Assembly (NCBI GenBank): GCA_965262505.1
Contig: CBDHFM010000012.1
Span: 37,268-101,267 of the forward strand
From: Vicinamibacterales bacterium
GTDB lineage: Bacteria > Acidobacteriota > Vicinamibacteria > Vicinamibacterales > UBA2999
Length of the DNA stretch: 64,000 nucleotides
Direction of reading: 5' to 3'
Under the pieces are notes generated by a model, which ran no database searches, was not told the DNA's origin, and saw nothing but the letters and a program-made list of their open reading frames with translations. Below are positions 67-48,683 of the stretch, in pieces. The stretch's first letter is position 1; each line of letters starts with the position of its first letter. Position numbers and translations under genes: made by a program.

Positions 67-2082
67 CTACGAGCCCTGCCGCCGCCGCCGAAACAGCTGC
101 CGCGCGCCGCCACCCAGCAGGCCCAGCCCGAGCAGCCACTGCGCAATCAACGGCAGCGCTGGCACCGGCTCCGGCGCCGGCCCGTCGGTCACGGTCACCA
201 TGACCTGCATGAGGCCGCTGACGCCGCTGCCCGTAGCCACCACGGTCACCGACTCGTTGGCCGTCAACGTGGCGGAGCCGCTCATGTCGCCCATCGCGAT
301 CATGATCGACTCGGCATCCAGTGTGCCGTCACCAACCACGGTCAGAGCGATCTCGACCGCGCCGTCGTCAGCCGTGACGGCTCGGCTGGCCGTCGCGGTG
401 ATCATCGTCGTGCCGCCCGCCGCGATCTCCATGGGCTCGGCGCTCAGCGTGACCACCAGCGGCGTGTCGACCACCGTCACCGGGAACGTGAGTGAGGCGT
501 CATTCGACACGGTCTGAGACGGCATGAGCGAGGACCCCGGCATTCTCGCCGTCCCGCTGACGGTGATCTTGGACTCGCCAGCCATCATCGCGTTGATCGT
601 GATCGTCTCGCCCGACGCGGACGCACTGACCGAGGTGCCCTCCACGCCGACGCTGTAGGTGGCCGTGTAGCCCTCCATCACGTCGAACAGGTCACTCGTC
701 ATGAGCTCGACCGTTTCACCCGGGTTCAGGCCGTCTTCGCCAGCCCCCGCCGCAATCGCGGCCTTGATCCCATCGTAGTCGGCCTCCGTCGCCTTCGGCT
801 CGATCTTCTTCGCCGTAGCGTCCTCAATGTAGAGCGACAGCACGCCCGCGCTCGTGCTGGTCTCGGAGCCAATCTTGCTGTCACCCGACACCATGGCGTC
901 GAACATGAGCGATTCCATGCCGACGTCCTCGTCCGCCCTCACCTCGAGTTCGACTCGATTACTCATCGGCGCGCCGCTCTCGATGGTGAGCGCCCCGACC
1001 AACGTGTAGTCCGCCGCATCGGCCGTGCCGGTCGGCCGCAACGCGACCGTGAGTTTCTCGGCGGCCTCCATGGCGTCCCCGTCGTCGTCGACCGACATCA
1101 CCGCCACCATAACGGATTCGCCTTCCGGCACCGATGTGGGTTGCGGGTCAAGGGTCTTCCCGTCCTTGTCGACCACCATCGCCTCGACCGCAGGCAGCGC
1201 GTTAATGTCCGCTACGTCGATCGTGATCGAGGCCCGCTCCGTCGAGTTCCCCGCCGATCCAGAATACGCGGTCAGCGTAAACGAGTCCTCGACGCGGTTT
1301 CCGTCGCCGTTGGCGCCGGTGGGCGTGGTGACCACAAGCAGCGCGCCTGCCTGGCCTGTCCCGGCGCTGATGGTGACTGCGCCGTTAGTAAGGCCCGTCG
1401 TTATGGGGTATTTCTGATTGTCAGAATGCAGAGTCAGAGCTAACTCATCATTGACGTGCACAGGATCTGCCCTGAGGGTCACGTTGATAGGACTCCCCTC
1501 CTTGGGCTTGTCCGTCGTCACTTTGAACACGTAGGTCTGGGTCTCGTCGTCCTCGATCTCGAGGTCAATGTCATCGATGGTGGACGTGAGACCACCTGTG
1601 ACACCTATATCCAGAACGACGTTCTCGTCTTCCGCGTCTGGGTCATGGGTCGTTTGCAAGCTGATGGTTTTGGAGACGACCACACCGATCTTTGCTTCGG
1701 CATTCATGGCGTCATTCTGATCATTTGCTGCAAAGACCAGCACCACCGTAGACGTGTCGCCGCCGGGATTAAACGAGGCATCCTGAGCCTCGCGCGTGTC
1801 GTCGCCCTGACCCGCAGTCGGTAACATAACCTCAACGGTGACCGTTCTGTCGCTTTCGTTGGCATCGACGGCGACGTCTGCGCTCGCGCTGATGGTGATC
1901 GTCGCGCTGTTGCCTTCGGTGACCGACTCCGGCACCTCGACCTTGACGCCGCCTTCGCCAAAGTCATCTGTCGCCGTGAGCTGCGCTTGCGCCGTCCCAG
2001 GAGACGCCGCCAGCAGCACAATCGCGGCAAGAGCCGTGAGCCAGTAGCCCTTCCGCATAAAAGTTGATCTCGCTCCGTTCAT
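67..2082 (-). CDS. Secreted surface protein with IPTL-CTERM-like sorting signal, allele 1
   Basis: N-terminal signal peptide ending AQA; acidic, Thr/Val-rich beta-sandwich-like body; C-terminal PEPVPALPLIAQWLLGLGLLGGG followed by RRRR (motif, TM helix, basic tail); AAGGAG 8 nt before the ATG. Confidence 0.85.
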   Translation of the reverse strand: MNGARSTFMRKGYWLTALAAIVLLAASPGTAQAQLTATDDFGEGGVKVEVPESVTEGNSATITISASADVAVDANESDRTVTVEVMLPTAGQGDDTREAQDASFNPGGDTSTVVLVFAANDQNDAMNAEAKIGVVVSKTISLQTTHDPDAEDENVVLDIGVTGGLTSTIDDIDLEIEDDETQTYVFKVTTDKPKEGSPINVTLRADPVHVNDELALTLHSDNQKYPITTGLTNGAVTISAGTGQAGALLVVTTPTGANGDGNRVEDSFTLTAYSGSAGNSTERASITIDVADINALPAVEAMVVDKDGKTLDPQPTSVPEGESVMVAVMSVDDDGDAMEAAEKLTVALRPTGTADAADYTLVGALTIESGAPMSNRVELEVRADEDVGMESLMFDAMVSGDSKIGSETSTSAGVLSLYIEDATAKKIEPKATEADYDGIKAAIAAGAGEDGLNPGETVELMTSDLFDVMEGYTATYSVGVEGTSVSASASGETITINAMMAGESKITVSGTARMPGSSLMPSQTVSNDASLTFPVTVVDTPLVVTLSAEPMEIAAGGTTMITATASRAVTADDGAVEIALTVVGDGTLDAESIMIAMGDMSGSATLTANESVTVVATGSGVSGLMQVMVTVTDGPAPEPVPALPLIAQWLLGLGLLGGGARQLFRRRRQGS

Positions 2083-2123
2083 GAGTGTCGCTCCTTTGAG
2101 ACTAGGGGGTAACGGTTACTTCT
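2055..2123. repeat. Direct repeat copy 1 (gene start, RBS and leader), putative att core region
   Basis: gcataaaagttgatctcgctccgttcatgagtgtcgctccttt[g/a]agactagggggtaacggttacttct also at 14123-14191 and 48414-48482; identity stops abruptly at or within 2 nt after ggttacttct. Confidence 0.85.
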
Positions 2124-2186
2124 TCATTCGCTGGCACCCCCACACGTCATGATTGGAGAATGGTTTACAGACTTTTCTAACGTCCC

Positions 2187-2206
2187 CTCCCCTCAAGATA
2201 CCCATA
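2187..2206 (+). repeat. Putative integrase arm-type site pair, element A left end
   Basis: cccctcaagataccc (2189-2203) recurs exactly at 11921-11935; 12-bp period; about 60 bp from the repeat end across an AT-richer spacer. Confidence 0.6.
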
Positions 2207-2582
2207 CATCCGAGACGGATTCCGATGGACAAATGCGGCCGCTCGTGGACGCGATCCGGCGCGCGCGCCGTGCGGGGCTGATCTTTTTCCTTCTCGATGG
2301 AGACCGGCAGTAGAATGCCCGCCGGCACTCCAGTCGCTTCCGTGACAATCTCAGATGTGACTTCTTACGAGCTTTGGCAGGTTGCGGGAAGACCGTCGAG
2401 ACCGAGGCTTGGTGGGTGTTTGGCGATCTTAGGTCATCATGGGATACGTCGACATTGTCCGACCGGCGGATCCGGCTGTGCCAACACCATCGACCTCGGG
2501 GTTCACTGCGCTGCCTTGCCAGCAGGATCGACCGTGCGCGCTTGGATGAAACCTGCCGTCAAGGCCGGATGTTGGGGTTCTC

Positions 2583-3635
2583 TCAATGTCGGCCGGCCCT
2601 GCCGTTCAGGACTCGCTCGATCTGTTCGGCGGACGCCAGAATTTCCTCGAATGCGGGGGCTGCGCCAAAGATCATGGTCGTTGTATTGGCATAGTCGCGA
2701 CCGAGGGCGTCAATCATCGCGTTGGTGAGCGCGATTGCGAACGTGCCGTGGGCGGCGGACGCGAGATCGAGGTCGGGCCGGTCAAAGAACATGCGGGCAT
2801 GTCGGACGCAGTCACCGCCAAGGTCGCGGTCCGCCAGCGCCGCCTCGCCGACCTCTGAGCGGAGCAGGCAATGCAGGTCGTAGTAGTGCCGCGACACACG
2901 CTGTCCCGCCTGCCGGAGGACGCCGCGTCGCTCATACCAGCGGCGCAGGCCATGCGCGATCACGATCTTGTCCCAGAAGGTGCGGGTGGGGTCGATGGCG
3001 GTCACGCCGTCGATCGCCAGGTCGAGCTCTGCTGCATCCTCGCCGATATAGGGCCGGATTGCGACGAGGCGGTTGGGATCGAGCGCTGACTTCGCGCCGC
3101 CTTCGAGTCGCACGGCCGGCCGCACATAGGCTGCATCGCGTGGCTCTACCTCGGGATACCAGACGAGCAATGTCTGTCCGTCGGGATCGTCCTGGTCGAT
3201 CTCGACGCGCCCGACGCCGCCGGTGGCACCGGCGAGCTGCGCGCCGAGAAACGTTTGGAGTGGACCCGTGATGTAGGCGCGGCACGCGTCCCGGATCGCG
3301 TCGAGCCTCGTCCGGCGCTTCTTGTTCGACAGGGCCTCCAGTTCCTCGACCGACGCCGGCTCGTCGAGATCATCCCGGAACACGGTGATGTCGATATCTT
3401 CGGAGAAGCGCTGGATCAGGCCATAGGCTTTCGACAGCGACGTGCCGCCCTTGAAGAGGAGACGGGGTCCTCCGGCAGGGCGTTCGCGATAGAGCGCATT
3501 CAGGGTCCAGCAGACCCAGAAGTCCTTTTCGACATGGCCGACCGGGGCGCCGATCCGATTGGCGGTCGCGAGAAACAGATCGAGCCGGTCACGCGGCGTC
3601 GCGGCGATGATGCGGCCATAGGCACCGGTCGTCAT
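2583..3635 (-). CDS. abiEii: AbiEii/AbiGii-family nucleotidyltransferase toxin (type IV TA)
   Basis: VEKDFWV, FKGGTSLSK, RFSEDIDI and SRHYYDL motifs. Confidence 0.9.
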   Translation of the reverse strand: MTTGAYGRIIAATPRDRLDLFLATANRIGAPVGHVEKDFWVCWTLNALYRERPAGGPRLLFKGGTSLSKAYGLIQRFSEDIDITVFRDDLDEPASVEELEALSNKKRRTRLDAIRDACRAYITGPLQTFLGAQLAGATGGVGRVEIDQDDPDGQTLLVWYPEVEPRDAAYVRPAVRLEGGAKSALDPNRLVAIRPYIGEDAAELDLAIDGVTAIDPTRTFWDKIVIAHGLRRWYERRGVLRQAGQRVSRHYYDLHCLLRSEVGEAALADRDLGGDCVRHARMFFDRPDLDLASAAHGTFAIALTNAMIDALGRDYANTTTMIFGAAPAFEEILASAEQIERVLNGRAGRH

Positions 3636-4300
3636 CGCGGCACCTCGCCCACGTCAGCGGATCCCAGCAGATCGCGCAGGAATTCCTGCATCCAGATCGG
3701 CAGGGCGGAGAAACCCGCTCGCAGATCGTCGCGGATCGTCTGTCCGTGTCGGGAATCCGCGAGCAGGCGGCGCAACACGGCCTGGACGCGCCGACGCTCG
3801 CTGTCTTGGGACAGCATATCCTGCATCCAGTGCAGCGCCTGAACGACTCGCATGGCGGGCCGGCCGGCCCAATGGAGGCGACTGGGCGCCGCGAACTTGA
3901 AATGGATTTCCTGGCTGCCGAGCTTGATCGGCTTCAGTCGCGCGTCGATCAACACTTCGATGCGTGCCGGAACTGCGGTGGTGAGACCGAGGTCATTGGC
4001 GGCGGTCATGCCGTCGATGACGGCACGAACCTGGTCGCGGCGGGTGACGGCCCGGATGACGGCGCGATAGTCGGGTACGGTCTGGCGCCCGGTCAGCCCG
4101 CTCCTGCGGGGCCGATCGTACAGGCCCCGGTCGATGCGTCGCAGCTCGCCCGCGGCGGCGAGGCGCTGCAAGGTCTTGTCGACGGCGGCGCGGCTGCCAA
4201 GGTCGGCAAAATCGCTGGGCGCCCAGACCTCGTCCGGGCTGGCCGCCACGCGGGCCAGTAGGCGGGAGCGAAGATCCGTGTCTTGCGTCAAGGTTTCCAT
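3632..4300 (-). CDS. DUF6088/AbiEi-like antitoxin
   Basis: DFADLGSRAAVDKTLQRL...RIDRGLY and AANDLGLTTAVP; 4-bp overlap with the toxin gene; start reassigned to ATG 4300 because the longer ORF is fused to an IS remnant. Confidence 0.8.
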   Translation of the reverse strand: METLTQDTDLRSRLLARVAASPDEVWAPSDFADLGSRAAVDKTLQRLAAAGELRRIDRGLYDRPRRSGLTGRQTVPDYRAVIRAVTRRDQVRAVIDGMTAANDLGLTTAVPARIEVLIDARLKPIKLGSQEIHFKFAAPSRLHWAGRPAMRVVQALHWMQDMLSQDSERRRVQAVLRRLLADSRHGQTIRDDLRAGFSALPIWMQEFLRDLLGSADVGEVPR

Positions 4301-4359
4301 GTCCGAAGTATGATGCATTGTTTGGACGCAACACCACGGCGAGGTCACGGTGCCGGTCA

Positions 4360-4519
4360 CGCAGGCCACGCGGACTTTACCCGCATTCGCAACGTGCAGC
4401 TTGGCCGCTTCACCATTGACCGGCTGATGACCGTGCTCAACAAACTCGGCCAGCACGTAGACGTGCAGATCGACGTTCACCCGCGTCGAGCTGCTGACGA
4501 AGCGTCTCCGCGTCCGTGA
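4360..4519 (+). pseudogene. 3' fragment of an XRE/HigA-like HTH protein
   Basis: ADFTRIRNVQLGRFTIDRLMTVLNKLGQHVDV resembles the C-terminal half of HTH_37-type proteins; no N-terminus. Confidence 0.55.
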
Positions 4520-4599
4520 AGCATCGTGGGGCGGTGCTGGCGCTGTTGGCGGGCAGCGTGACCACGACGGCTCCCCCCAGCCATTCCCCACCGCGTCCG

Positions 4600-4808
4600 T
4601 GAGACGTGAATCGATGATCCCCCTGGAGGGATCCAGCCGCGGCGAGTCCTGCGCGCCACCTGTCGACAGGTCCCGGTCCAACTGACCGGTCTCGATCCAC
4701 TCGTGGATCGTCCGGCGGCGCACGCCGAAGCGTCTCGACACACTCTGCCTTCGAGACGCCCCGTTCCAGGTAGTGCTTCAGCAACATCCTCGTCTCCCAT
4801 CCGTGCAT
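4600..4808 (-). pseudogene. IS21-family istA N-terminal remnant
   Basis: MHGWETRMLLKHYLERGVSKAE, then a frameshift into SRRFGVRRRTIHEWIETGQLDRDL. Confidence 0.6.
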
Positions 4809-4996
4809 CCGTGCCCCGCTGTTGACGTCGCCAATCTCGCGGCGTGCGCCGCCGCGGAGTCGCACGCCGACAGGGAGGCAAGGGTTTTTAGTCGGGATCG
4901 GCTGGTGAGCGCGCCGCCCCTCACGGTGCACAACAGGGCCGATCAGGTCCTATTGCGTCCCAACGGGCCTGTTGAGGTCTACGTAGGTAAGAAATG

Positions 4997-5050
4997 GTAA
5001 TATCTCTTTATTACACAGTAGTTTACAAGTTTTATACACTGGGCTAGACT
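4997..5050 (+). promoter_or_regulatory. Palindromic operator plus sigma70 promoter of alpA
   Basis: GTAATATCTCTTTATTAC (4997-5014); TTTACA (5022-5027), 17 bp, TAGACT (5045-5050); conserved in element B. Confidence 0.65.
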
Positions 5051-5118
5051 GTCGCGGTAGGCCACCAAAACACAGACACGGCCCTGGTCACGGCCGGGCC
5101 ACCAACCAGGACGGAACC

Positions 5119-5319
5119 ATGACCACGAAACTGCTCACGCTCCGCGACGTGACGGCGCTCACCGCGCTGTCCCGCTCGACTGTCTACGTGATGATGGCCG
5201 AGTCCAGGTTCCCGAAGCCGATCCGCATCGGCAACCGGGCGGTCCGGTGGGTCGAACAGGAAATGCTCGACTTCATCGCCAGCCGCCCGCGCGGCGGCTC
5301 GGATCGGCCCACGGCATAG
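5119..5319 (+). CDS. alpA: AlpA-family regulator / probable recombination directionality factor
   Basis: LLTLRDVTALTALSRSTVY...FPKPIRIGNRAVRW. Confidence 0.9.
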   Translation: MTTKLLTLRDVTALTALSRSTVYVMMAESRFPKPIRIGNRAVRWVEQEMLDFIASRPRGGSDRPTA

Positions 5320-5342
5320 CCGGAATGATCGAAGACCGACGC

Positions 5343-5447
5343 ATCACCTTTCTCCCGACCGTTGAGCCGGAGCTGAGGATCGGCCACCCGTTGAGGACCA
5401 TCGTCACGTACGTGCGCGGCAACCGGGCATGGGTGACGGGACCATGA
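5343..5447 (+). pseudogene. virB8 3'-end remnant
   Basis: ITFLPTVEPELRIGHPLRTIVTYVRGNRAWVTGP* aligns with the C-terminus of 27491-28153 (FTFIETVEPELMIVNPMGILITYLRGDRALVTG*). Confidence 0.75.
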
Positions 5448-6430
5448 TCCCCCACGTGGAGGACCGCGCGGCGGCGCTCGCAGCGCTCGGCTGGACCGGC
5501 CGAGCGGCCGACTGGATCGCGCTGGTCTGTCTCCATAGCGGCGTCTTTACGCGGTCGCAGTGGTGTTATGTGTTCGAGGATCCGTACCGTGTGGCGGCCA
5601 CCCGGTTTGTCCGCACCCTCCTGGATCGCGGCGTGGCGGTGGAGGACGCGCGGGCCATCTTCCCCGGCGGCGGGCGGGCCGTCCACATCACGCACAAACC
5701 GATCTACCGGGCGCTCGGCATCGAGGACAGCAAGCACCGCCGGGGCGCGCAGGAAACGACAACCCAGGTGCTCATGCGGCGGCTGCTGTCGCTCGACTAC
5801 ATCATCGAGCGGCCGACCCTCGGATGGCTCCCAACCGAGGAGGAAAAGGTGCGCCGGTTTGACGCGCTCGGCATCAACCGGGCGATGCTGCCCTACCGGG
5901 TCTCTGGCACGGCGGGCAAGGGGCAGACACGCTTTTTTGCGCTCAAGTTTCCCGTCGCCGTGGACGAGAAGGCGGCGACGTTTGCCTACGTGGATCCGGG
6001 ACTGACCACAGACAGTGAACTCCGCGCCTGGGGAAAGACCCACGCGCCGCTCTGGGCCGCCCTACGGGCGCGGACATTCGCCGTGCAGATTGTCGCCATC
6101 GGCATAGGCGAGTCGGCCGCTGACCGGGCCGAGAAAGTGCTCCGTCCCTGGACGAGAGCGGGCGACCGGCAGGCCGAGGCGACCCCGGCCGGGAAGACCC
6201 AGGCCGACCCGGCAGTCCAGCACGAACTTGCGGAACTTGAGCGGGCCATTGTGCAGGTCGACCGGAAAGCCCTGCACGCGTTGGGGGGAATCGGCGCGGC
6301 ATCCAGGCGGGTCCTGACACTCCGACAACTCCCCACCGGAACCACTCTGAACGCGAGCCCGCGCGGCTCGATCGACCGCTATACGACGTGGAGCACGAGT
6401 CGGTTAATCAGTCCCGAGGGGGCGGGATGA
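5444..6430 (+). CDS. Conserved element protein of unknown function (possible atypical relaxase or Rep)
   Basis: Close paralog of 28150-29172 in the same virB8-ORF-structured DNA-virD4 synteny. Confidence 0.75.
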   Translation: MIPHVEDRAAALAALGWTGRAADWIALVCLHSGVFTRSQWCYVFEDPYRVAATRFVRTLLDRGVAVEDARAIFPGGGRAVHITHKPIYRALGIEDSKHRRGAQETTTQVLMRRLLSLDYIIERPTLGWLPTEEEKVRRFDALGINRAMLPYRVSGTAGKGQTRFFALKFPVAVDEKAATFAYVDPGLTTDSELRAWGKTHAPLWAALRARTFAVQIVAIGIGESAADRAEKVLRPWTRAGDRQAEATPAGKTQADPAVQHELAELERAIVQVDRKALHALGGIGAASRRVLTLRQLPTGTTLNASPRGSIDRYTTWSTSRLISPEGAG

Positions 6431-6465
6431 CGAACGTGACGGTGACCTGTCGGCTGGACTGTTCC

Positions 6466-6761
6466 GGGGTCGCGGTGGGGGTCGCGGTGGGGGTCGCGCA
6501 ACATGTTGCACCGACAGAGGGGGGGGTGCAACACAAAGAGGTGGGGGGGGTGCAACATCTCCCCCGTCCATGTTCCGCTGTGTCTGTTCGGGTTGTTCGT
6601 CCTACACCGTCTCGACCGAACCGCGCCAGCGGAGAGGGAAAAGACGGGAGCGACCCCCCCATTTTCGCCGCTGGCGCGGCTCGGCGAGTGGGGGGGTGTC
6701 ACACCTGGTGCAACACCAGGTGCGACACCCCCCGTCGCCACGGGTGGGGGTCGCTCCCGTC
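6466..6761. other. Structured non-coding region, candidate oriT/origin of element A
   Basis: 20-bp stem at 6691-6733, 16-bp perfect IR at 6643-6658/6746-6761, 12-bp tandem repeats; homologous to 29207-29503. Confidence 0.5.
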
Positions 6762-6832
6762 CGAAATCATCCCTGCGGGAAGGCGAAGACGCCCGCTAAC
6801 GGGCGCGCGCAGACGCGCCAAGGAGCCACGCG

Positions 6833-40473: not shown

Positions 40474-40514
40474 ACTATATGACGGTATGATACTCATACC
40501 ATATGATTATTATG
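40428..40514. repeat. 87-bp direct repeat including parS-like repeats
   Basis: Near-identical copy at 41562-41648. Confidence 0.85.
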
Positions 40515-42218: not shown

Positions 42219-42479
42219 CTAGGCGGCGCCGGGGCAATCTTGAGGGGTGATTCCCGTAAAAGAGTCTGTTGGTCTGGTCTCGCTCGCGTGTCGGCCAATC
42301 CTTGCGGTTGGAAGCGACGCGGCGAGCGGCAAGCGGACGTACACGCGGCCGGAGGCCTCCTGTCTGGCTCGAATGTCCCTGAAGATTGCCTCACCGTCGT
42401 CGTCGAAGCGCGCGGCGGCCGCCTGCCGGATGGCCCGAACTTCAGCGATGATTGGGTCCGAGGGGTATGGAGATATCAC
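42219..42479 (-). CDS. Small hypothetical protein
   Basis: GAGG RBS; DPIIAEVRAIRQ...ARF motif. Confidence 0.5.
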   Translation of the reverse strand: MISPYPSDPIIAEVRAIRQAAAARFDDDGEAIFRDIRARQEASGRVYVRLPLAASLPTARIGRHASETRPTDSFTGITPQDCPGAA

Positions 42480-42493
42480 ACCTCGGTGTCGGG

Positions 42494-42721
42494 CTAGTTG
42501 GCGGCGTCGGCGTCGCGCTTGAGGACCTCGATCACGAGGGTGCGCAGTTCCGTGATGTCGTCGTGGACTTCAGTGAAGCGGGCGTTCATGTCTATGCGCA
42601 AGCCGTCGATGCGGGCGTTGACGTCGTCGATGCGCTTGCCCGAGTACCAGGCGCTGCCGGCCATCGTGAAGACGACGGCCGCGGCCGCCACGAAGATGGT
42701 GATGCGGTCGGTCGCATTCAT
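42494..42721 (-). CDS. Small membrane-anchored coiled-coil protein
   Basis: TM segment followed by RIDDVNARIDGLRIDMNARF heptads. Confidence 0.6.
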   Translation of the reverse strand: MNATDRITIFVAAAAVVFTMAGSAWYSGKRIDDVNARIDGLRIDMNARFTEVHDDITELRTLVIEVLKRDADAAN

Positions 42722-42747
42722 ACCTGCAGTGTACCACCCCTTCCACG

Positions 42748-42854
42748 GATGGGACATCGATCAGAGTGTCCAGAGTGTCCCGGTTGCGGCCGGGGGGAGT
42801 GACCTGATCTCCAACCTGCGACCTCTGCACTGGAGAGCCAACGTCGCTCGGTAG
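42748..42854 (+). pseudogene. HNH endonuclease 3' fragment
   Basis: GWDID...VPVAAGGSDLISNLRPLHWRAN, with a 9-bp tandem duplication where the His is expected. Confidence 0.5.
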
Positions 42855-42886
42855 CAGATTCGCTGTGATCGGTGCCACCCCCTCGT

Positions 42887-44017
42887 CTACCGGGAATCTG
42901 TCACCGCCGTCGCGCCATCGCCTCTGTGCTCCCCACTCAGATAGGTCGCCCACTCGTCCATCAGCCGCCGCCGGCGCTCGAACAGGTCCGACCGGGCGTA
43001 GGCCGCCTCGGTCTGGTTGGCCACCACGTGCGCGAGCGCCGCCTCGACCACCTCACGCGGATGATTCGTCTGTTCCGCGGCCCAGTCCCGGAACGATGAC
43101 CGGAATCCGTGCGGCACGGCGGCCACCTTCAGGTTCTGAAGCAGCCGCGGCAGCCGCGTGATGCTGATCGGCTTGCCGCCCTGGCTGGGGAACACGAGCG
43201 GCCCGCGGCCATCGCCGAGCGGCCGCGCCGCACGGAGCATCTTCACCGCCCGTCCGCACAGCGGGACCCGGTGCTCGCGCTTGGACTTCATACGCCCGGC
43301 GGGGATCGTCCACACGCCGGCCCGCAGGTCGATCTCGGCCCACCGCGCGCCGCGCACTTCGCCCGACCGCGCCGCCGTCAGCACCAGAAACTCGAACGCC
43401 AGCTTGACGACCGGTGTCGCCCCCGACTCCCCCATCGTTCGGATCGCCGCCGCCACCTCGCCGTGCGGGAGCGCGCGCATGTGCTCGACGAGGTCCTGTT
43501 GCGGGCCGAGGACCGGGCCGAGCCGGTCGCACGGGTTGTCGCTGCGGTACTCCATCGCCACGGCCCAGTCCAGCACGGCGCTGATCCGCTGGCGAACGCG
43601 GCGCGCGGTCTCGGGCCGGATGTGCCAGATGTGCCGCAGCGTATCCAGCACGTCGACGCTGCTGACGCTCGATACCGGCGTGTCGCCGATGTGCGGGAGG
43701 ACGTGCCGCGTCAGGCTCGACATCCAGTCATGAGCGTGCCGGGGGTGGCGCCAGCCGGGGTGCTTGTCCGTCCAGACCCGCTCAGCCGCGGCGGCGAAGG
43801 TGGGCACGGTGTCGGGACGCTGCCTGTCCGCGACCGGGTCGCCGCCTTGGCGCGCCGCCTTGCGGTTGGCGAACGCTTGGTCGCGCGCCTCCTTGAGCGA
43901 GACGAGCGGAAAGCCGCCGAGCCCCACGTCGCGGCGGCGGCCACGGATCACGATCCGCTGGATCCAACTTCGCGTGCCCGTGGGTTGCACGGTCAAGTAG
44001 AGGCCGTTGCCATCTCC
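42887..44017 (-). CDS. P4-like tyrosine integrase IntB, 3' part (lacks first 35 codons)
   Basis: Paralog of 8922-10040; frame reads *GRSGDGNGLYLTVQP with an in-frame TGA just upstream. Confidence 0.85.
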   Translation of the reverse strand, partial: GDGNGLYLTVQPTGTRSWIQRIVIRGRRRDVGLGGFPLVSLKEARDQAFANRKAARQGGDPVADRQRPDTVPTFAAAAERVWTDKHPGWRHPRHAHDWMSSLTRHVLPHIGDTPVSSVSSVDVLDTLRHIWHIRPETARRVRQRISAVLDWAVAMEYRSDNPCDRLGPVLGPQQDLVEHMRALPHGEVAAAIRTMGESGATPVVKLAFEFLVLTAARSGEVRGARWAEIDLRAGVWTIPAGRMKSKREHRVPLCGRAVKMLRAARPLGDGRGPLVFPSQGGKPISITRLPRLLQNLKVAAVPHGFRSSFRDWAAEQTNHPREVVEAALAHVVANQTEAAYARSDLFERRRRLMDEWATYLSGEHRGDGATAVTDSR

Positions 44018-44079
44018 ACTACGGCCTCACAGAATCCACCAACGTGTCGTATTGTGCTGTATGTAGCATAAACGTTGTA

Positions 44080-44161
44080 GTAATAACTATTTATGACACC
44101 TTACGAGCTTCCTGATCCGCTCACAACATCCTTTGCGGTCCATCAACATCCCCTATACAAT
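44080..44161 (+). promoter_or_regulatory. Operator and -10 box upstream of intA
   Basis: GTAATAACTATTTATGAC (44080-44097); TACAAT (44156-44161) 6 nt before the ATG. Confidence 0.55.
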
Positions 44162-44167
44162 GAGGGT

Positions 44168-45430
44168 ATGAATAGCGCGACACAGACGCTGCACCTGCCG
44201 CGACGGACCAAGCCCCGAGGCCGCCATCCCGACAAGCGGCTGACGGCAGGCTTCGTGCGGACCGTCGCGCCCGGACGATACTGCGATGGCCAGGGGTTGT
44301 ATCTCTACGTCCAGCCGTCCGGCACCAGGAGCTGGGTCCAGCGGCTCATGATCCACGGTCGCCGCCGTGACCTCGGGCTCGGCAGCGTGGCGCTGGTGCC
44401 GCTCGTCGAGGCCCGCGAGAAGGCGCGGGTCAACCGCAAGCTGGCCCGCGAGGGGGGCGACCCGCTCGCGGAGAAGCGCCGCGCGGAGGGGACGCCGACG
44501 TTTGCGGAGGCGGCCCGCCGCGTGCTGGACCAAAAACGGGCCGGCTGGCGGAACGGCCGGCACCCGCAGAGCTGGTGGACGAGCCTGGAGCGCTACGCCT
44601 TTCCCCGGATTGGCGCACGGCCGGTGTCCGACGTGACGAGCGCTGAGGTGCTGGAGGTGCTCACGCCGGTCTGGCACGTGAAGGCGCAGACCGCGCGGCG
44701 TGTGCGTGAGCGGATCCGGGCGGTGCTGGAGTGGGCCGTGGCGATGGAGTACCGCAGCGACAACCCGTGCGACCGCATCGGGCCAGTCCTCGGACCGCAG
44801 CAAGTAACGGTCGAGCACATGCGGGCGCTCGCGCACCAGGACGTGCCGGCAGCTCTCGCACGGGTGCGAGCATCCGGGGCGGCCGAGATCGTCAGGCTGG
44901 CGTTCGAGTTTCTCGTGCTGACGGCGGCGCGGTGGGGCGAGGTCCGCGGGGCCGCGTGGACCGAGATCGACGCCGCCGCCGCCGTGTGGACGATCCCCGC
45001 CGCGCGCATGAAGGCGAAGCGCCCGCACCGGGTCCCACTACCGGAGCGCACGGCGGAGATCCTCGAGGCGGCGCGGACGCGTGGCGACGGGCCGCTCGTG
45101 TTTCCCGGGCGGGACGGGGCGCCGCTGGCCGACAAACGGCTGCGCCGGCTCCTCCAGCAGCAGGGGATCGCAGCCGTGCCGCACGGCTTCCGGTCCACCT
45201 TCCGAGACTGGGCGGCCGAGGAGACCGACCATCCGCGCGAGGTCATCGAGGCGGCGCTGGCGCACGTCGTGCAGAACACGGTCGAAGCGGCCTATGCCCG
45301 CTCGGACCTGTTCGAGCGCCGGCGGCGGCTCATGGGCGACTGGGCGGCCTATTTGAACGGGACGCCTCGTCCGGCTGTGTACAATGGTTCCGTTCCCGGC
45401 ATCAGACGAGAGGAGGATCGACGGTCATGA
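44168..45430 (+). CDS. P4-like tyrosine integrase IntA, intact
   Basis: Paralog of 10191-11438; start placed at MNSATQ by alignment. Confidence 0.92.
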   Translation: MNSATQTLHLPRRTKPRGRHPDKRLTAGFVRTVAPGRYCDGQGLYLYVQPSGTRSWVQRLMIHGRRRDLGLGSVALVPLVEAREKARVNRKLAREGGDPLAEKRRAEGTPTFAEAARRVLDQKRAGWRNGRHPQSWWTSLERYAFPRIGARPVSDVTSAEVLEVLTPVWHVKAQTARRVRERIRAVLEWAVAMEYRSDNPCDRIGPVLGPQQVTVEHMRALAHQDVPAALARVRASGAAEIVRLAFEFLVLTAARWGEVRGAAWTEIDAAAAVWTIPAARMKAKRPHRVPLPERTAEILEAARTRGDGPLVFPGRDGAPLADKRLRRLLQQQGIAAVPHGFRSTFRDWAAEETDHPREVIEAALAHVVQNTVEAAYARSDLFERRRRLMGDWAAYLNGTPRPAVYNGSVPGIRREEDRRS

Positions 45431-45585
45431 CGCTCCCGACACACCCACGCGAACCGAGACCCCCAGGCCGGCGGCTTGAACATGCACTCACGCCAGCCTT
45501 CGTGCGCAACGTGGCCACGGCCGGCCGTTACGGAGATGGTCGCCGCCGATCGCGTGCAACTGCTTCAGAATACATGGCTTATTGA
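45427..45585 (+). CDS. 5' piece of IntB (arm-domain N-terminus)
   Basis: MTLPTHPREPRPPGRRLEHALTPAFVRNVATAGRYGDG-RRRS...; AGGAGG RBS; ATGA overlap with the intA stop. Confidence 0.82.
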   Translation: MTLPTHPREPRPPGRRLEHALTPAFVRNVATAGRYGDGRRRSRATASEYMAY

Positions 45586-46015
45586 CCAGCCCCAGCGTTC
45601 GCTTCCCTCGTTGTACCCCTCTCTCTGAACGGGACCCTGCCGGACCAAGAAAGCCGTCCGTGGACGGCCCCGGCCTGAGCGCCAGCGTGACCACCCCGGA
45701 ACCCGTCGTGACGCCGACGCCGATCCACTCGCGTCCCACCGCTGCCGTCGCGGCTCCCATGGCGGCGACGCGCCGCGGGATCGTGTGGCCTCCGGTGATC
45801 ACGTCGTAGGGCACAACCACGCCGGCAGCGCTGGCCAGCACGTCCCCGGCGTGGCGCGTCTCGACCAGACGGTCGCCGCCAGCTCAGGCGCGCGAATGAG
45901 GGAAGAACCCGCTGGCCTCGGCCTGCGTGACGCGGGAGGCGCCGTCGAGCCCGAGTTCGTCGCGGCGGCCGCGGATGGCGCTGCGCTCGATCGATCCGCC
46001 CCCGCCACGCCTCCC

Positions 46016-46038
46016 GTTACCCACAATCTTACCCACAC
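46016..46038 (+). repeat. Putative arm-type site pair, element B
   Basis: ttacccaca twice with 12-bp period; matches 14254-14276. Confidence 0.65.
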
Positions 46039-46255
46039 GTGGTGTCCGATGCCCCTGGACTCTCCCGGACGGCTTCACGCGTTCCTGGATCCGGGCGTGG
46101 CGGTGGAGCGGCCACTAAGCAGCCGATCTCCGTGAGGCGACCAGGGCCGGAAAGAGGACGAGCTGACCAGCAAGGCGGGACCGCCGTGGACACCCGCGGC
46201 ACCAGCCGGACCCCATCTGCGGAATCAACGCGGTGAGGGGGTCGTGGCTCCGAAC

Positions 46256-46293
46256 AAAAAAAAGGCGAGCGGACACCGGAGGCGCCGCTCGCC
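46256..46293 (-). terminator. Intrinsic terminator of surface-protein allele 3
   Basis: GC-rich stem plus T8; homologous to 12154-12191. Confidence 0.85.
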
Positions 46294-46440
46294 GAAAAAT
46301 CGCCGGTCACGAGCTGGGAGCACCGTTCCACGACCAGAACACTCGGGGACGCTCAGAAAAGCAAAGTGGGGATCCGGCGCAAACGCGCCGGGTCCCCCCC
46401 CTGCCCGATTACCCCCCCGGGCTTTCAGGAACGATAGGCT

Positions 46441-48441
46441 CTACGAGCCCTGCCGCCGCCGCCGATACAACTGCCGCGCACCGCCACCCATCAGGCCAAA
46501 CCCGAGCAGCCACTGCGCAATCAACGGCAGCGCTGGCACCGGCTCCGGCGGCGCTTCAGTCACGGTCACCATAACCTGCATGTGGCCGCTGACGCCGCTG
46601 CCCGTGGCCGTCACGGTCACCGACTCGTTGGCCGTCAACATCACGGAGCCGCTCGTCTCGCCCATCGCGATCGTGATCGAGTCGGCATCCAGTGTGCCGT
46701 CACCCACCACGGACAGATCAATCGTGGCCGCGCCGTCTCCAACCGTGACGGCTCGGTTGGCCGTCGCGGTGATCATCGTCGTGCCGCCCGCCTCGATCTC
46801 CATGGGATCGGCGCTCAGCCTGACCACCAGTTCCGTGTCTTCCACCGTCACGGGGAACGTGAGCTCGGCGACGTTCGACACGGTCTGCGACGACATGAGC
46901 GAGGACGATGCCATTCTCGCCGTCCCGGTGACGGTGATCTTGGCCTCGCCGGCCATCAGCGCGTTGATCGTGACCGTATCGCCCGACGCGGACGCACTGG
47001 CCGAGTCACCCTCCACGGAGACGCCGTAGCTGGCCGTGTAGCCGTCCATCACATCGAACAGGTCACTCGTCATGAGCGTGACCGTGTCACCCGGGTTCAG
47101 GCCGTCGTCGCCGCCCCCCGCCGTAATCGCGGCCATGAGCGCCGCGTAGTCGGCCTCACTCGCCTTCGGCGTAATCTTCTTCGTCGTCTCGTCCTCAATG
47201 TTCAGCGACAGCACACCCGCGCTCGTGCGGGTCCCTGGGCCGTTGGCGCTCTCACCGGACACCACGGCGTCGAACATGAGCGATTCCATGCCGACATCCT
47301 CGTCCGACCGCACCTCGATTTTTATGACAGCGCTCATCCCTTTGGCCATCTTGATGTCGGCCGACCCGACCAACGTGTAGTCCGCCGAATCGGCCGTGCC
47401 GGTCGGCATGAACGCCACCGTGAGGTTCTCTGCGGCGTTCATGGCTTTGCCCTTGTCGTCGACCACCATCACCGCCACCATGGCGGTTTCGCCTTCCTTC
47501 ACCGACATGGGTTGCGGGTCGAGGGCCTTGCCGTCCTTATCGACCACCATCATCGCGACCGCAGGCAGCGCGTTCTTGTCTTCGATATCGATGGACAATG
47601 CGTCAACCAACGTGGCATTCCCCGCCGAGCCCGAATACACGGAGACCGTGATCGTGTCTTCGACACGGTTCTTGTCGTTCCCGCCCAGGGTGATGGTGAT
47701 GTCCTCCGAACGGTTGTCCTCGTTAAGCGTGGGGACGGTGGCAGTCACCGGAGCGGTGATGCTGGCAAGAGTCGGCGGACTGTCAATTTGCACCGACAGA
47801 TCCGCGGAGCCGTTGACGTGTGCAGGGTTCGCGGTGACGGTCACCGTGATCGGATCGCCCCCCTCCTCGGGCTCCGCGTCGTCATCCAAGGTCAGGTCGT
47901 AGGACTGGGTCTCGTCGTCATCAATGGTGAGCGTCGTTGGGCTACCTGACGCTTCTGCGATGGTGTCGCCGTCCGCATCCTTAAGGCCACCGTCCACCAG
48001 AACGAAACTCCAATCGAAGACCTCATCCTCCGCGTCCAAGTCATGGGTCGTCTGCACCCGGATAGTGCGCGTTGCAGAGTACGAGACGGGGCTTAAGGTG
48101 GCGTTCGACGGAATTGCGAAAGTTGCGACGAGGCCTAGTTGCGCCGTGTTGATATCTTCTGTCTCACCCGCGGTGGCGGTGGCCGTGGCAGTTCCGGCGA
48201 CAATTTCCGCTGTCACGGTCGCCGTGGCCGCCGCGGTGGGAGTGTCCGCGTCCTGGGCGGCGTCGATCATCCCCTTGAGGGTCACGGTCACCGTGACGCT
48301 GTCGCCCTCGGCCACCGCTTTATCCGCCCTGATGGTGGCCTGTGCCGACGCCGTCCCCGCGGACGCCACCAGCAGCACAATCGCGGCAAGAGCCGTGAGC
48401 CAGTAGCCCTTTCGCATAAAAGTTGATCTCGCTCCGTTCAT
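46441..48441 (-). CDS. IPTL-CTERM-like surface protein, allele 3 (promoter-proximal)
   Basis: C-terminal half closely similar to allele 1, N-terminal half divergent; same signal peptide start and sorting signal. Confidence 0.85.
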   Translation of the reverse strand: MNGARSTFMRKGYWLTALAAIVLLVASAGTASAQATIRADKAVAEGDSVTVTVTLKGMIDAAQDADTPTAAATATVTAEIVAGTATATATAGETEDINTAQLGLVATFAIPSNATLSPVSYSATRTIRVQTTHDLDAEDEVFDWSFVLVDGGLKDADGDTIAEASGSPTTLTIDDDETQSYDLTLDDDAEPEEGGDPITVTVTANPAHVNGSADLSVQIDSPPTLASITAPVTATVPTLNEDNRSEDITITLGGNDKNRVEDTITVSVYSGSAGNATLVDALSIDIEDKNALPAVAMMVVDKDGKALDPQPMSVKEGETAMVAVMVVDDKGKAMNAAENLTVAFMPTGTADSADYTLVGSADIKMAKGMSAVIKIEVRSDEDVGMESLMFDAVVSGESANGPGTRTSAGVLSLNIEDETTKKITPKASEADYAALMAAITAGGGDDGLNPGDTVTLMTSDLFDVMDGYTASYGVSVEGDSASASASGDTVTINALMAGEAKITVTGTARMASSSLMSSQTVSNVAELTFPVTVEDTELVVRLSADPMEIEAGGTTMITATANRAVTVGDGAATIDLSVVGDGTLDADSITIAMGETSGSVMLTANESVTVTATGSGVSGHMQVMVTVTEAPPEPVPALPLIAQWLLGFGLMGGGARQLYRRRRQGS

Positions 48442-48482
48442 GAGTGTCGCTCCTTTAAGACTAGGGGGTAACGGTTACTTCT
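48414..48482. repeat. Direct repeat copy 3, right boundary of element B
   Basis: One mismatch to copies 1 and 2. Confidence 0.85.
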
Positions 48483-48654
48483 GCTGTGGGGGTAACGTTG
48501 CTTCTTTATATCTACGGTTTAACGGTTACTGCTTCTGTCCAGTGGGGCAAGAAATAGTGATCATCCTTCGGCGTAACTCAGCTACCTGCTGTGCCGTCAA
48601 CACCTGGATGTATGAGAGTGGTCCCTGCTTCTCATATCGAAAACTCACCGACAA

Positions 48655-48683
48655 ACTATAGAGGCTTTGTCGCGAAAACGCAA
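48655..48683 (-). promoter_or_regulatory. Predicted sigma70 promoter of the surface-protein locus
   Basis: TTGCGT (48683-48678), 17 bp, TATAGT (48660-48655) with AT-rich upstream sequence; implies a leader of about 200 nt. Confidence 0.55.

What the first reader, a model, noticed from the sequence alone, without database searches (positions are those of the whole stretch)
67..48683. Integrative elements that swap the host's expressed surface protein
Seen: three full-length alleles of one IPTL-CTERM-like surface gene alternate with two elements. The shared 69-bp repeat ends about 40 nt upstream of the start codon. Beyond it, alleles 1 and 2 face element ends (spacer plus arm-like repeats), while only allele 3 continues into a leader with a predicted sigma70 promoter (48655-48683). 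Alleles 2 and 3 each have their own terminator. Established: elements that integrate into genes carry a replacement for the displaced part, normally a short fragment. Inference: the crossover here is in the 5' leader, so the replacement is the whole gene. Each integration would put the incoming allele under the host promoter and silence the previous one, and excision would restore it. That would be mobile-element-driven surface (possibly S-layer-like) variation with a stacked archive of silent alleles, relevant to phage-receptor switching, surface exclusion or host recognition.
Basis: partly seen in the sequence, partly recalled or inferred. Interest (0 to 1): 0.93.

Follow-up and report, generated by a model that had tools for sequence, protein, structure and literature searches.

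The report
Mobile elements stacked in a surface-protein gene
Related conjugative and mobilizable elements have inserted one after another just upstream of a highly variable surface-protein gene on a plasmid-like contig, each bringing its own complete copy, so every insertion or excision changes which copy sits behind the resident leader; whether the other copies are silent is untested.

Summary
The window has three intact alleles (671, 602 and 666 aa) with conserved ends and diverged middles. They alternate with a 12-kb mobilizable element and a 34-kb T4SS-bearing element. Each element has an AlpA-like gene and two tyrosine integrases.

Across 13 copies in this genome, upstream homology stops about 41-44 nt before the ATG. 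Nearly identical element ends abut different alleles. One pair places the crossover between -44 and -9, in the 5' UTR, so each unit carries a whole gene.

- The "host" flank is a RepA/ParA plasmid-like backbone. No copy lies on the 5.4-Mb chromosome, and 39 of 40 relatives lack the gene.
- The array has at least four alleles, and the genome has 11 distinct ones.
- The C-terminus matches no IPTL-CTERM or PEP-CTERM model. An exosortase-family gene does sit on 6 of the 7 allele-bearing contigs.
- A conserved TTGCGT-17-TATAGT lies in the leader, but silence of alleles 1 and 2 is unproven. Co-oriented toxin-antitoxin genes lie upstream of both, with no predicted terminator between.

Verdict: a new variant of site-specific tandem accretion. 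Expression switching is plausible and untested.

The parts
67..2082 (-). Allele 1 (671 aa): signal-peptide-like N-terminus, diverged middle, PEPVPALPL + hydrophobic helix + RRRR C-terminus
   Evidence: no Pfam or NCBIfam family
2083..2126 (-). Core copy 1: 5' UTR GAAGAAGTAACCGTTACCCCCTAGTCTCAAAGGAGCGACACTC with the ribosome-binding site. Upstream homology among copies ends here.
2127..14194 (.). Unit e1 (about 12 kb), mobilizable-type: AbiE toxin-antitoxin pair, AlpA-like gene, conserved ORF, coupling protein, integrase pair, allele 2. Boundaries are good to about 3 nt.
2583..4741 (-). AbiEii (2583-3635) and AbiEi/DUF6088 (3632-4741), co-oriented with allele 1 and directly upstream of it
   Evidence: no minus-strand terminator-like site between 2583 and 2082
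5095..5322 (+). AlpA-like gene of e1 (80% identical to that of e2 over 76 aa)
6833..8875 (+). Type IV coupling protein of e1. It is preceded by the conserved ORF 5429-6430, which has no known family.
8922..9974 (-). intA' of e1: tyrosine integrase lacking about 85 N-terminal residues of the arm-binding domain, catalytic motifs kept
10191..11438 (+). intB of e1: full-length P4/CP4-57-type tyrosine integrase, convergent with allele 2
12342..14150 (-). Allele 2 (602 aa), followed by a conserved hairpin and U-tract within 12240-12346
14151..14194 (-). Core copy 2
14250..14272 (+). Two inverted core-like copies (ACCGGTTACCC, CACCGTTACCC) at the left end of e2: candidate integrase-binding sites
14195..48485 (.). 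Unit e2 (about 34 kb), conjugative-type: AlpA, MazEF, S24 repressor, ArdC, VirB-type T4SS, coupling protein, VirB11-like ATPase, Sel1 protein, RepA_C, integrase pair, allele 3
14660..14980 (+). AlpA family protein (PF05930, 63 bits), divergent from allele 2; promoter-like site at 14648-14676 (+)
15406..16046 (-). MazF/ChpB-like toxin (15406-15738) and MazE-like antitoxin (15738-16046), co-oriented with allele 2
16180..16890 (-). HTH + peptidase S24 repressor
19918..32582 (+). T4SS block: VirB2 pilin, VirB4, VirB9, VirB10, weak VirB5, VirB6, coupling protein (29332-31626), VirB11-like ATPase
38310..39305 (-). RepA_C replication protein inside e2
42887..43996 (-). intA' of e2 (N-terminally truncated)
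44093..45430 (+). intB of e2 (full length)
46340..46440 (-). Conserved hairpin plus U-rich tract downstream of allele 3 (-53.7 kcal/mol for 106 nt, z = -2.45)
46441..48441 (-). Allele 3 (666 aa), the leader-proximal copy
48442..48485 (-). Core copy 3
48486..48740 (-). L-type leader: terminator-like hairpin (48736-48706), TTGCGT-17-TATAGT (48683-48655), and a UTR of about 170 nt with two more direct core-like copies (48490-48527)
49423..54896 (.). Plasmid-like flank: IS1182-family transposase (49423-50829), DUF169, ParA (52587-53192), RepA_C (53904-54896)

Best explanation
The window is part of a 112-kb plasmid-like contig. Related integrative units have joined head to tail on it by site-specific recombination. 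The recombination site is a short core (GAAGAAGTAACCGTTACCCCC...) in the 5' UTR of a hypervariable, exosortase-type surface-protein gene, 9-44 nt upstream of the ATG.

In each unit the order is: core, whole gene with its own terminator, about 1 kb of spacer, intB, intA', the unit's body, an AlpA-side end. The gene therefore occupies the position where such elements normally carry the short replacement for the part of the target gene that they displace.

Recombination between the core of a circular unit and the core of a resident replicon puts the incoming allele behind the resident leader. It moves the resident allele behind the incoming unit's far end. Recombination between two direct cores reverses this.

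Shown: the anatomy, the sharp shared breakpoint, and the same element ends next to different partners.

Inferred: that intB and/or intA', together with AlpA, catalyse the reaction. Also inferred: that the L-type leader holds the main promoter, so that the leader-proximal allele (allele 3 here) is the one chiefly expressed.
For: 1. Breakpoint. In 13 of 13 copies whose 5' end was read, sequence is shared from about -41/-44 to about +107. Upstream of that point the copies fall into unrelated classes: 5 L-leader, 5 AlpA/S24-end, 3 others.

2. The same end with different partners. 4 of 4 e2-like left ends compared (88.5-99.6% identical to one another per segment) abut alleles whose next 590 nt are only 40-45% identical in DNA (36-61% in protein). 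C4 and C10 are 99.6% identical from -1000 to -45, 89.0% from -44 to +110, and 44.9% after. Their first difference downstream of -44 is at -8.

3. The same allele with different partners. Allele 2 and its copy left of the window are 100% identical in protein and share DNA only from -44 to +2200.

4. One element in two arrays. Comparing the e2-like element on C12 with that on C22, allele and integrase DNA is 96.8-99.1% identical, while the leaders beyond the core are 59.7% identical.

5. Recombination module. Both integrases keep the R, K, HxxR, H and Y motifs. AlpA homologues lie beside 5 of 5 AlpA/S24-type ends and in e1.

6. The exact core occurs only next to these genes, genome-wide. It is also conserved in front of a 43%-identical homologue in another genome record.

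7. Leader. TTGCGT-17-TATAGT, preceded by a hairpin, is conserved in 4 of 4 L leaders, which otherwise differ. All four lie beside ParA/RepA genes.

8. Every allele has its own hairpin plus U-tract.

9. Surface reading. An exosortase/archaeosortase signature (46-49 bits against a cut-off of 23) is found at 6 places, all on allele-bearing contigs, which is 6 of 7 such contigs.

10. Diversification. Overall dN/dS is 0.72-1.00 in 6 of 6 allele pairs, and all 13 complete copies are intact. The family has 357 clusters at 50% identity with E <= 1e-30.
Against: - No excised circle, empty site or recombination product was observed. The public runs are kept only as contigs.
- No expression data resolve the alleles.
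- The promoter scanner calls no promoter in the leader.
- Alleles 1 and 2 lie downstream of co-oriented genes (AbiEi/AbiEii; MazEF and the S24 repressor gene), with no terminator-like site on that strand between them. Read-through could express them.
- The only related genome with the gene (1 of 40) has a single copy behind an element-type end, not an L leader. That genome gave no match to the exosortase-like protein, so the copy may be a relic.
- Alleles and flanks are also mosaic in ways that need homologous recombination. Allele 2 and the C4 allele share both flanks at about 95% but are 35% identical in protein.
- No relaxase family was recognised in the ORFs tested.
- The link between this contig and the 5.4-Mb chromosome rests on binning only. 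They share no segment of 500 nt or more at 97% identity or more.
Confidence: 0.6

Rival explanations
1. Accretion without switching. The gene is an accessory gene of the elements, for example a mating or surface-recognition adhesin. Each copy is transcribed in place from promoters of the neighbouring unit, by read-through from the AbiE, MazEF or S24 operons, or from unrecognised promoters. The array would then change the number of surface variants made, not which one.
For: Co-oriented upstream genes with no predicted terminator lie before alleles 1 and 2. All 13 complete copies are intact despite synonymous differences (pS) of 0.23-0.32 between the diverged alleles. The single copy in G038 sits behind an element end. 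Other large proteins with the same C-terminal signal lie next to T4SS genes on the chromosome and on other contigs.
Against: Chromosomal T4SS elements of the same family carry one integrase and no such gene, so it is not needed for transfer. A conserved promoter-like pair is seen only in the L leader. Each allele ends in its own terminator, which fits separate promoterless units.
Confidence: 0.3
2. Cassette exchange by homologous recombination. The conserved 5' block (148 nt) and the conserved 3' block (179 nt, continuing to 393 nt past the stop) serve as homology arms. The variable middle of the gene is swapped among copies through them. On this view the -44 boundary is only the edge of a conserved gene-family block.
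For: Allele 2 and the C4 allele share flanks at about 95% on both sides, but the middle 1.5 kb is unrelated (35% protein identity). Some 60-codon windows between alleles are almost free of differences, for example allele 3 against C4 at codons 421-480, where pN/pS is 0.04/0.02. The 393 nt after the stop are 85-93% identical in all copies compared.
Against: Homologous exchange needs homology on both sides of the breakpoint, but sequence upstream of -44 is unrelated between the classes. It also does not explain the integrase pair, AlpA and core-like repeats that flank the site. It probably acts in addition to site-specific recombination, not instead of it.
Confidence: 0.1
3. Assembly or binning artefact. 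Strain variants of one locus from a metagenome were chained together across the short conserved blocks, so the tandem array does not exist on one molecule.
For: The public runs that hold the stretch behave as mixed communities: many contigs at 90-95% likeness and uneven depth. The small contigs of this genome are partly redundant (C20 and C22 are 100% identical over 4.7 kb) and C20 has inverted duplicate ends.
Against: The four C12 units differ in gene content and order, not only in allele. Arrays recur on C22, C21 and C9 with different partners. C9 closes on itself with an intact 712-aa gene across the joint. In the protein search, at least 14 sets of two or more homologues share one longest-contig length, which suggests arrays elsewhere; equal length is only an inference of the same contig.
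Confidence: 0.07

Closest known systems
Site-specific tandem accretion of ICEs and IMEs (SXT/R391 arrays at prfC; ICESt1/ICESt3-related elements)
   Same: Several related elements with tyrosine integrases sit head to tail at one att site and are separated by direct att repeats. A unit without a T4SS sits next to one with a T4SS, which allows joint excision. Passages read in PMC5812530 state that tandem arrays of SXT/R391 members form at one site and are unstable. The accretion papers appear only in its reference list.
   Different: Here the att core lies in the 5' UTR of a gene and every unit carries a complete, highly diverged allele of it. The resident replicon is plasmid-like. Each unit has two integrase genes.
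[quoted passage not shown]
   Same: A tyrosine integrase targets the 5' end of a gene (passage read in PMC2791158).
   Different: From recall, not from a call: SXT supplies a new promoter and 5' coding end for the same host gene. Here the resident side would keep the promoter and the element would supply the entire coding sequence, in a different allele.
Integrons (attI behind the Pc promoter, promoterless cassettes)
   Same: A single leader or promoter beside a recombination site. Stacked units in direct orientation, with the first one nearest the promoter. Excision and re-insertion reorder what is expressed. This comparison is from recall.
   Different: The 'cassettes' here are 12-34-kb elements with their own integrases, transfer genes and replication genes. 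The integrases are P4/CP4-57-type with arm-binding domains, not IntI. No attC-like folded sites are seen. Each allele has its own terminator.
Expression-site surface variation (Mycoplasma pulmonis vsa; Campylobacter fetus sap S-layer genes)
   Same: Several full-length alleles share a conserved 5' end, there is one promoter-bearing site, and recombination chooses the expressed allele. This comparison is from recall.
   Different: Those systems use inversions among chromosomal silent copies. Here all copies are in direct orientation and each is cargo of a mobile unit. Switching has not been shown.
PEP-CTERM / IPTL-CTERM exosortase substrates
   Same: N-terminal signal-peptide-like region. Extreme C-terminus with a Pro-rich motif (PEPVPALPL), a hydrophobic helix and an Arg cluster. 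An exosortase-family gene is present on the same contigs.
   Different: No match to any NCBIfam sorting-domain model. The exosortase-like protein is 544-556 aa and scores below the cut-off of every named Xrt subfamily.

Membership tests
IPTL-CTERM / PEP-CTERM sorting domains (NCBIfam models) | Match to the curated HMM of the sorting domain | tested here: not met
   0 families for the three whole alleles. 0 families for the last 35 and last 59 residues at E up to 10.
IPTL-CTERM / PEP-CTERM sorting domains (NCBIfam models) | Three-part C-terminus: short motif, hydrophobic helix, basic cluster at the very end | tested here: met
   PEPVPALPL + IAQWLLGLGLMGGGA + RQLFRRRRQ is seen in the 12 copies listed and in the joined C9 copy, 13 in all. 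The same signal is found in about 17 other large ORFs.
IPTL-CTERM / PEP-CTERM sorting domains (NCBIfam models) | A cognate exosortase-family enzyme in the genome | tested here: inconclusive
   The TIGR04178 signature scores 46-49 bits (cut-off 23) at 6 places, all on allele-bearing contigs. The best named subfamilies are XrtH at 69.5 bits (cut-off 86) and XrtX at 65.6 bits (cut-off 170). The Pfam PF09721 genome scan found nothing, and the protein itself gives E = 0.0085, below the cut-off. Pairing with this substrate is inferred from co-location only.
Integrative conjugative / mobilizable elements with tyrosine integrase | Tyrosine recombinase with catalytic residues | tested here: met
   Phage_integrase, Phage_int_M and Arm-DNA-bind_3 domains are found in all four genes. 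The R, K, HxxR, H and Y motifs are invariant in the alignment.
Integrative conjugative / mobilizable elements with tyrosine integrase | Direct repeats (att) at both ends, with homology to other copies of the element ending there | tested here: met
Integrative conjugative / mobilizable elements with tyrosine integrase | Directionality factor | tested here: met
   AlpA (PF05930, 63 bits) at 14660-14980, with a homologue at 5095-5322. Its function as an excisionase is not shown.
Integrative conjugative / mobilizable elements with tyrosine integrase | Conjugation genes: mating-pair apparatus, coupling protein, relaxase | tested here: inconclusive
   VirB2, VirB4, VirB9, VirB10, VirB6, a weak VirB5, VirB11 and the coupling protein are found in e2. 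Only the coupling protein is found in e1. No relaxase family was recognised. The conserved ORF beside the coupling protein (5429-6430; 28150-29172) has no family.
Integrative conjugative / mobilizable elements with tyrosine integrase | Excised circular form and empty site | not testable with these tools
   The runs are held only as contigs, and one read-laying run was allowed.
Integron-like or expression-site variation system | One promoter beside the recombination site, promoterless units, and only the proximal unit expressed | tested here: inconclusive
   A conserved TTGCGT-17-TATAGT lies in 4 of 4 L leaders, but the scanner does not call it. No minus-strand promoter-like site was called upstream of alleles 1 and 2. 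There are no allele-resolved RNA data.
Shufflon / invertible expression switch | Recombination sites in inverted orientation | tested here: not met
   All four alleles and cores on C12 are on the same strand.

The most novel reading that the evidence does not exclude
A mobile-element-borne expression-site system. Plasmids of an uncultured soil or sediment lineage keep one promoter-bearing leader and their own exosortase. Each incoming conjugative or mobilizable element docks in the 5' UTR and installs its own full-length surface-protein allele behind that leader, archiving the previous one. The transfer history of a cell would then set, and could reversibly reset, its surface identity. That could bear on phage reception, recognition or exclusion. 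A second recombination point at the intB|intA' junction would let the units nest and permute.
Probability: 0.3. Interest if true: 0.85.

Novelty: new variant of a known kind. Interest (0 to 1): 0.68.

Why it matters
Integrative elements normally carry a short replacement for the piece of the target gene that they displace. Here the crossover lies ahead of the coding sequence, so the replacement is an entire allele of a fast-diversifying surface protein.

If the leader-proximal copy is the one expressed, conjugation and excision would act directly as a switch of cell-surface identity, and silent alleles would be stored as a stack. This joins two fields that are usually separate: ICE/IME accretion and programmed surface variation.

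The protein family is also large and unannotated. It has 357 clusters at 50% identity and no Pfam, NCBIfam or PDB relative. It is tied to a plasmid-borne exosortase-like enzyme in a poorly studied lineage.

Tried and rejected
The ESM Atlas did not hold allele 3 or the stored homologue P0008, which I tried as the tool's message proposed. A profile search of PDB sequences gave only signal-peptide-like matches to nanobody leaders. Scanning 40 family members against Pfam gave only weak Ig-like hits (PrkC PASTA-like in 11 of 40, best E = 0.0032). The fold remains unknown.

- More loci. The JGI metagenome scan with the alignment found none. A scan with the core pattern found two short contigs, L025 and L026. 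The PLSDB plasmids gave no protein match. The genome-contig scan gave one locus, L012.

- Public runs, all held as contigs.
  - Contigs from RNA libraries of two studies (X17, X18) lie on the conserved 3' half of the gene (pieces between 46254 and 47228) and on the 5' repeat bin, at 90-99% likeness. They therefore come from relatives' alleles as well.
  - DNA carry-over cannot be excluded, and depths cannot rank genes. I draw no conclusion on the expression of allele 3 or on the silence of the others.
  - One X18 contig leaves the window at 48488. By eye, its first 30 loose letters are the reverse complement of the sequence upstream of the core in L026, matching 29 of 30. That upstream region is of a backbone type with an AdoMetDC-like ORF. 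This is a weak hint that transcripts can cross the core from a backbone side.
  - An X4 contig matches allele 3 with 0 differences over 1668 nt. Another X4 contig leaves the window near 48492. Parts without cover are not interpreted.

- Mapping the crossover from SNPs inside the C12 array failed. Allele 2 and its second copy are identical from -41 to +125.

- A native terminal allele. The C10 copy has no integrase downstream, but its flank is a mosaic that is shared with other contigs from +746 onward. It cannot be read as an original site.

- Taxon. The 16S gene on C30 is only about 79-80% identical to the rRNA operons present in PLSDB. The only other genome record with a homologue is labelled Vicinamibacteria. 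The taxon is not established.

- Link of C12 to the chromosome. They share no segment of 500 nt or more at 97% identity or more.

- tRNA target. There are no tRNA genes in the window.

- Literature. Four keyword searches listed no description of an att site in the 5' UTR of a variable exosortase-type gene with whole-allele replacement. I saw listings and abstracts only. Passages were read in PMC2791158 and PMC5812530. Supplements were not opened.

This second call adds that field and this line and changes nothing else.

Full report
**What is there.**

The window is G000:C12:37268-101267. The genome record is 7.0 Mb, made of one 5.4-Mb contig and 29 contigs of 13-122 kb.

Three intact minus-strand ORFs lie at 67-2082, 12342-14150 and 46441-48441. 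Alleles 2 and 3 are 42% and 62% identical to allele 1. The first 35 or so residues and the last 35 or so are almost invariant, and the middle is diverged.

The repeat finder gives a 148-nt repeat at each 5' end and a 179-nt repeat at each 3' end. It also shows long homologies between the two intervening segments. There is no tRNA gene in the window.

**The intervening segments are integrative elements.**

Unit e1 (about 2127-14194) encodes:
- AbiEii and AbiEi;
- an AlpA-like protein;
- a conserved ORF of no known family;
- a type IV coupling protein;
- two divergent tyrosine integrases.

Unit e2 (about 14195-48485) encodes:
- AlpA (PF05930, 63 bits), MazEF and an HTH-S24 repressor;
- ArdC, VirB2, VirB4, VirB9, VirB10, VirB6, a weak VirB5, a coupling protein and a VirB11-like ATPase;
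- a Sel1 protein and RepA_C;
- the same integrase pair.

In each pair, intB is full length. intA' lacks about 70-85 N-terminal residues of the arm-binding domain. Both keep the catalytic motifs.

Beyond allele 3 lie an IS1182-family transposase, DUF169, ParA, a second RepA_C and an IS3-type transposase. This flank is a plasmid-like backbone, not a chromosome.

**The gene family in this genome.**

tblastn finds 14 copies on 7 small contigs (C4, C9, C10, C12, C20, C21, C22) and none on the 5.4-Mb contig. One of them is 7.5 kb left of the window and is 100% identical in protein to allele 2, so the C12 array has at least four alleles, all on one strand.

12 copies read as intact ORFs of 602-1019 aa. 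A 13th, which spans the two ends of contig C9, reads as an intact 712-aa ORF once the ends are joined. One more copy is cut by a contig end. After removing two identical pairs, there are 11 distinct alleles.

**The breakpoint.**

In all 13 copies whose 5' end was read, the sequence GAAGAAGTAACCGTTACCCCCTAGTCTCAAAGGAGCGACACTC-ATG is shared. Homology upstream of about -41/-44 then falls into unrelated classes:
- an L-type leader in 5 copies on 4 distinct contigs, each beside ParA/RepA genes;
- an AlpA/S24-type element end in 5 copies;
- three other ends.

Three comparisons show recombination at this point.
- 4 of 4 e2-like left ends compared abut four different alleles (36-61% protein identity). 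In those pairs, homology stops between +89 and +113.
- C4 and C10 give the sharpest picture: 99.6% identity from -1000 to -45, 89.0% from -44 to +110, and 44.9% after. The first difference downstream of -44 is at -8. This places the crossover in a 36-nt stretch of the 5' UTR.
- Conversely, allele 2 and its second copy share DNA only from -44 to +2200.

The e2-like element also occurs on C22 with an allele 93% identical to allele 3. There the allele and integrase DNA is 96.8-99.1% identical to C12, while the leader beyond the core is only 59.7% identical.

Genome-wide, the motif AAC(C)GTTACCCCC is found next to these genes, plus once elsewhere on C9, and never on the chromosome. The core is also conserved ahead of a 43%-identical homologue in another genome record, L012. 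In L012, six ordinary metabolic genes precede it and an integrase follows it.

**Consequence of the geometry.**

The order in every unit is: core, gene, terminator, about 1 kb of spacer, intB, intA', body, AlpA-side end. A crossover at the core therefore exchanges upstream partners. The incoming allele takes the resident leader, and the resident allele ends up behind the incoming unit's AlpA-side end.

The exchange is symmetrical. Units such as e2 and both halves of the circular contig C9 carry their own RepA_C. The process can therefore equally be described as cointegration of plasmid-like circles.

**Promoter and silencing.**

The L leader holds a hairpin with a T-run, then TTGCGT-17-TATAGT, then a UTR of about 170 nt with two extra direct core-like copies. 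This layout is conserved in 4 of 4 L leaders, which otherwise differ. The consensus scanner does not call the site, because it matches 8 of 12 positions.

No minus-strand promoter-like site is called upstream of alleles 1 and 2. That is weak evidence, because the same scanner also misses the leader site.

Against silence:
- AbiEi/AbiEii lie 0.5 kb upstream of allele 1 and read towards it.
- MazEF and the S24 repressor gene read towards allele 2.
- No terminator-like site on that strand lies between either pair.

Every allele has its own hairpin plus U-tract. Silence of the distal alleles is therefore an open question.

**What the protein is.**

It has no Pfam or NCBIfam family. A profile built from 40 family members finds no relative among PDB sequences. 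Scanning those members one by one against Pfam gives only weak Ig-like hits. Structure prediction and the Atlas were unavailable.

The C-terminus (PEPVPALPL, a hydrophobic helix, then RRRR) has the layout of a PEP-CTERM-type sorting signal. It matches no curated sorting-domain model, so 'IPTL-CTERM-like' is a resemblance and not a membership. The same signal ends about 17 other large ORFs, several of them on the chromosome.

A scan with Pfam's exosortase model found nothing. The exosortase/archaeosortase signature TIGR04178 hits six places at 46-49 bits (cut-off 23). All six are on allele-bearing contigs, which is 6 of 7 such contigs, and none is on the other 23 contigs.

The protein is 544-556 aa, follows a methyltransferase gene, and scores below the cut-off of every named Xrt type. 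One copy lies on C12, left of the window.

**Diversification.**

Overall dN/dS is 0.72-1.00 in 6 of 6 allele pairs compared, with no stop codon in any copy. Stretches of near-zero divergence sit among highly diverged ones, which points to mosaic recombination.

Allele 2 and the C4 allele share about 95% identical flanks on both sides, yet are 35% identical in protein. Homologous cassette exchange therefore acts as well.

**Outside this genome.**
- 418 proteins match at E <= 0.001 among the 8000 candidates scored. Nearly all come from metagenome assemblies, without names or Pfam domains. Several share one longest-contig length, which suggests arrays.
- A full HMM search gives 1068 proteins at E <= 0.001, 709 at E <= 1e-10 and 357 at E <= 1e-30, counted in a library of cluster representatives at 50% identity.
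- PLSDB plasmids give no match.
- Of 40 related genomes, one (G038) has the gene, as a single copy.

**The G038 copy.**

It lies in a 10.9-kb stretch with an IS on its left and a repeat on its right that is multi-copy in the C30 chromosome. The stretch is an exact circular permutation of a small unit: intA', ArdC, conserved ORF, coupling-protein fragment, core, gene, intB. It is opened precisely at the intB|intA' junction. G038 gave no match to the exosortase-like protein.

Short intB N-terminal remnants (residues 30-66) lie downstream of three alleles. Together with the permutation, this suggests a second recombination point inside the 5' part of an integrase gene. I did not resolve this.

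**Public runs.**

All the runs are held as contigs and look like mixed communities. They do not test expression or excision. Details are under Tried and rejected.

**Comparison with known systems.**
- Tandem arrays of ICEs at one att site are established (passages in PMC5812530).
- The logic of one leader with stacked units resembles integrons and expression-site surface variation (both recalled, not from a call).
- The new point here is that the att core lies ahead of the coding sequence of a hypervariable, exosortase-type surface gene. As a result, each element carries a complete alternative allele.
- Four keyword searches listed no such description.

**Verdict.**

I rate it a new variant of a known kind, with interest 0.68.

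The structural claim is well supported: site-specific stacking at a core in the 5' UTR, with whole-allele carriage. The functional claim is plausible and testable but not shown: one expressed allele and a silent archive.

Noticed in passing
window 9974-10191 and 43996-44093; L021:13935 and L022:4832 (G038:C3, about 3142934 and 3153831): The junction between intB's upstream region and the N-terminally truncated intA' looks like a second recombination point. In G038 a 10.9-kb unit is an exact circular permutation opened at this junction. intB N-terminal remnants (residues 30-66) lie downstream of three alleles. The junction sequence contains a core-like AACCGTTGCC.
   Followed up: partly
G000:C12 about 6.2-7.9 kb (left of the window); L028:1117-2751: A plasmid-borne exosortase/archaeosortase-family protein of 544-556 aa (489-aa open frame on C12), preceded by a class I methyltransferase. 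It occurs on 6 of the 7 allele-bearing contigs and nowhere else in the genome. It scores below the cut-off of every named Xrt subfamily.
   Followed up: partly
G000:C30 5122411-5134224, 5180893-5182059, 5288741-5294842, 801399-807262 and others: About 17 further large ORFs (up to 2033 aa) end in the same PVPALPL + helix + basic signal. Several lie near chromosomal T4SS elements. The only exosortase-like genes found are on the small contigs.
   Followed up: no
window 40428-40514 and 41562-41648: Two 87-nt direct repeats (93% identical) with AT-rich palindromic ends lie about 1-2 kb from the RepA_C gene of e2. They may be replication-origin or partition sites.
   Followed up: no
window 2583-4741 and 15406-16046: Toxin-antitoxin pairs sit at the left end of both units, next to the core and reading towards the neighbouring allele: AbiEi/AbiEii in e1 and MazEF in e2.
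   Followed up: partly
G000:C20 1-9116 versus 68141-77281: The two ends of contig C20 are inverted duplicates of each other and are 100% identical to part of C22. This may be a hairpin-type assembly artefact or redundancy among the small contigs.
   Followed up: no
G000:C12 18945-20584 (left of the window): A tandem array with a period of about 327 nt.
   Followed up: no
window 5429-6430 and 28150-29172: A conserved ORF of about 335 aa always lies just upstream of the coupling-protein gene in these elements. It has no Pfam or NCBIfam family. No recognisable relaxase is present, so it is a candidate for that role.
   Followed up: no
L012:1-14080: In a MAG record labelled Vicinamibacteria, six ordinary metabolic genes (NIPSNAP, ankyrin, DUF1592 family, DUF1552, OYE, PQQ dehydrogenase) run straight into the conserved core, a 723-aa homologue and an integrase. 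This is a chromosomal-looking context for the same module.
   Followed up: partly
window 45431-46440: The roughly 1 kb between each allele and intB is conserved. The first 393 nt after the stop are 85-93% identical in all copies compared. None of the ORFs tested there has a known family.
   Followed up: no
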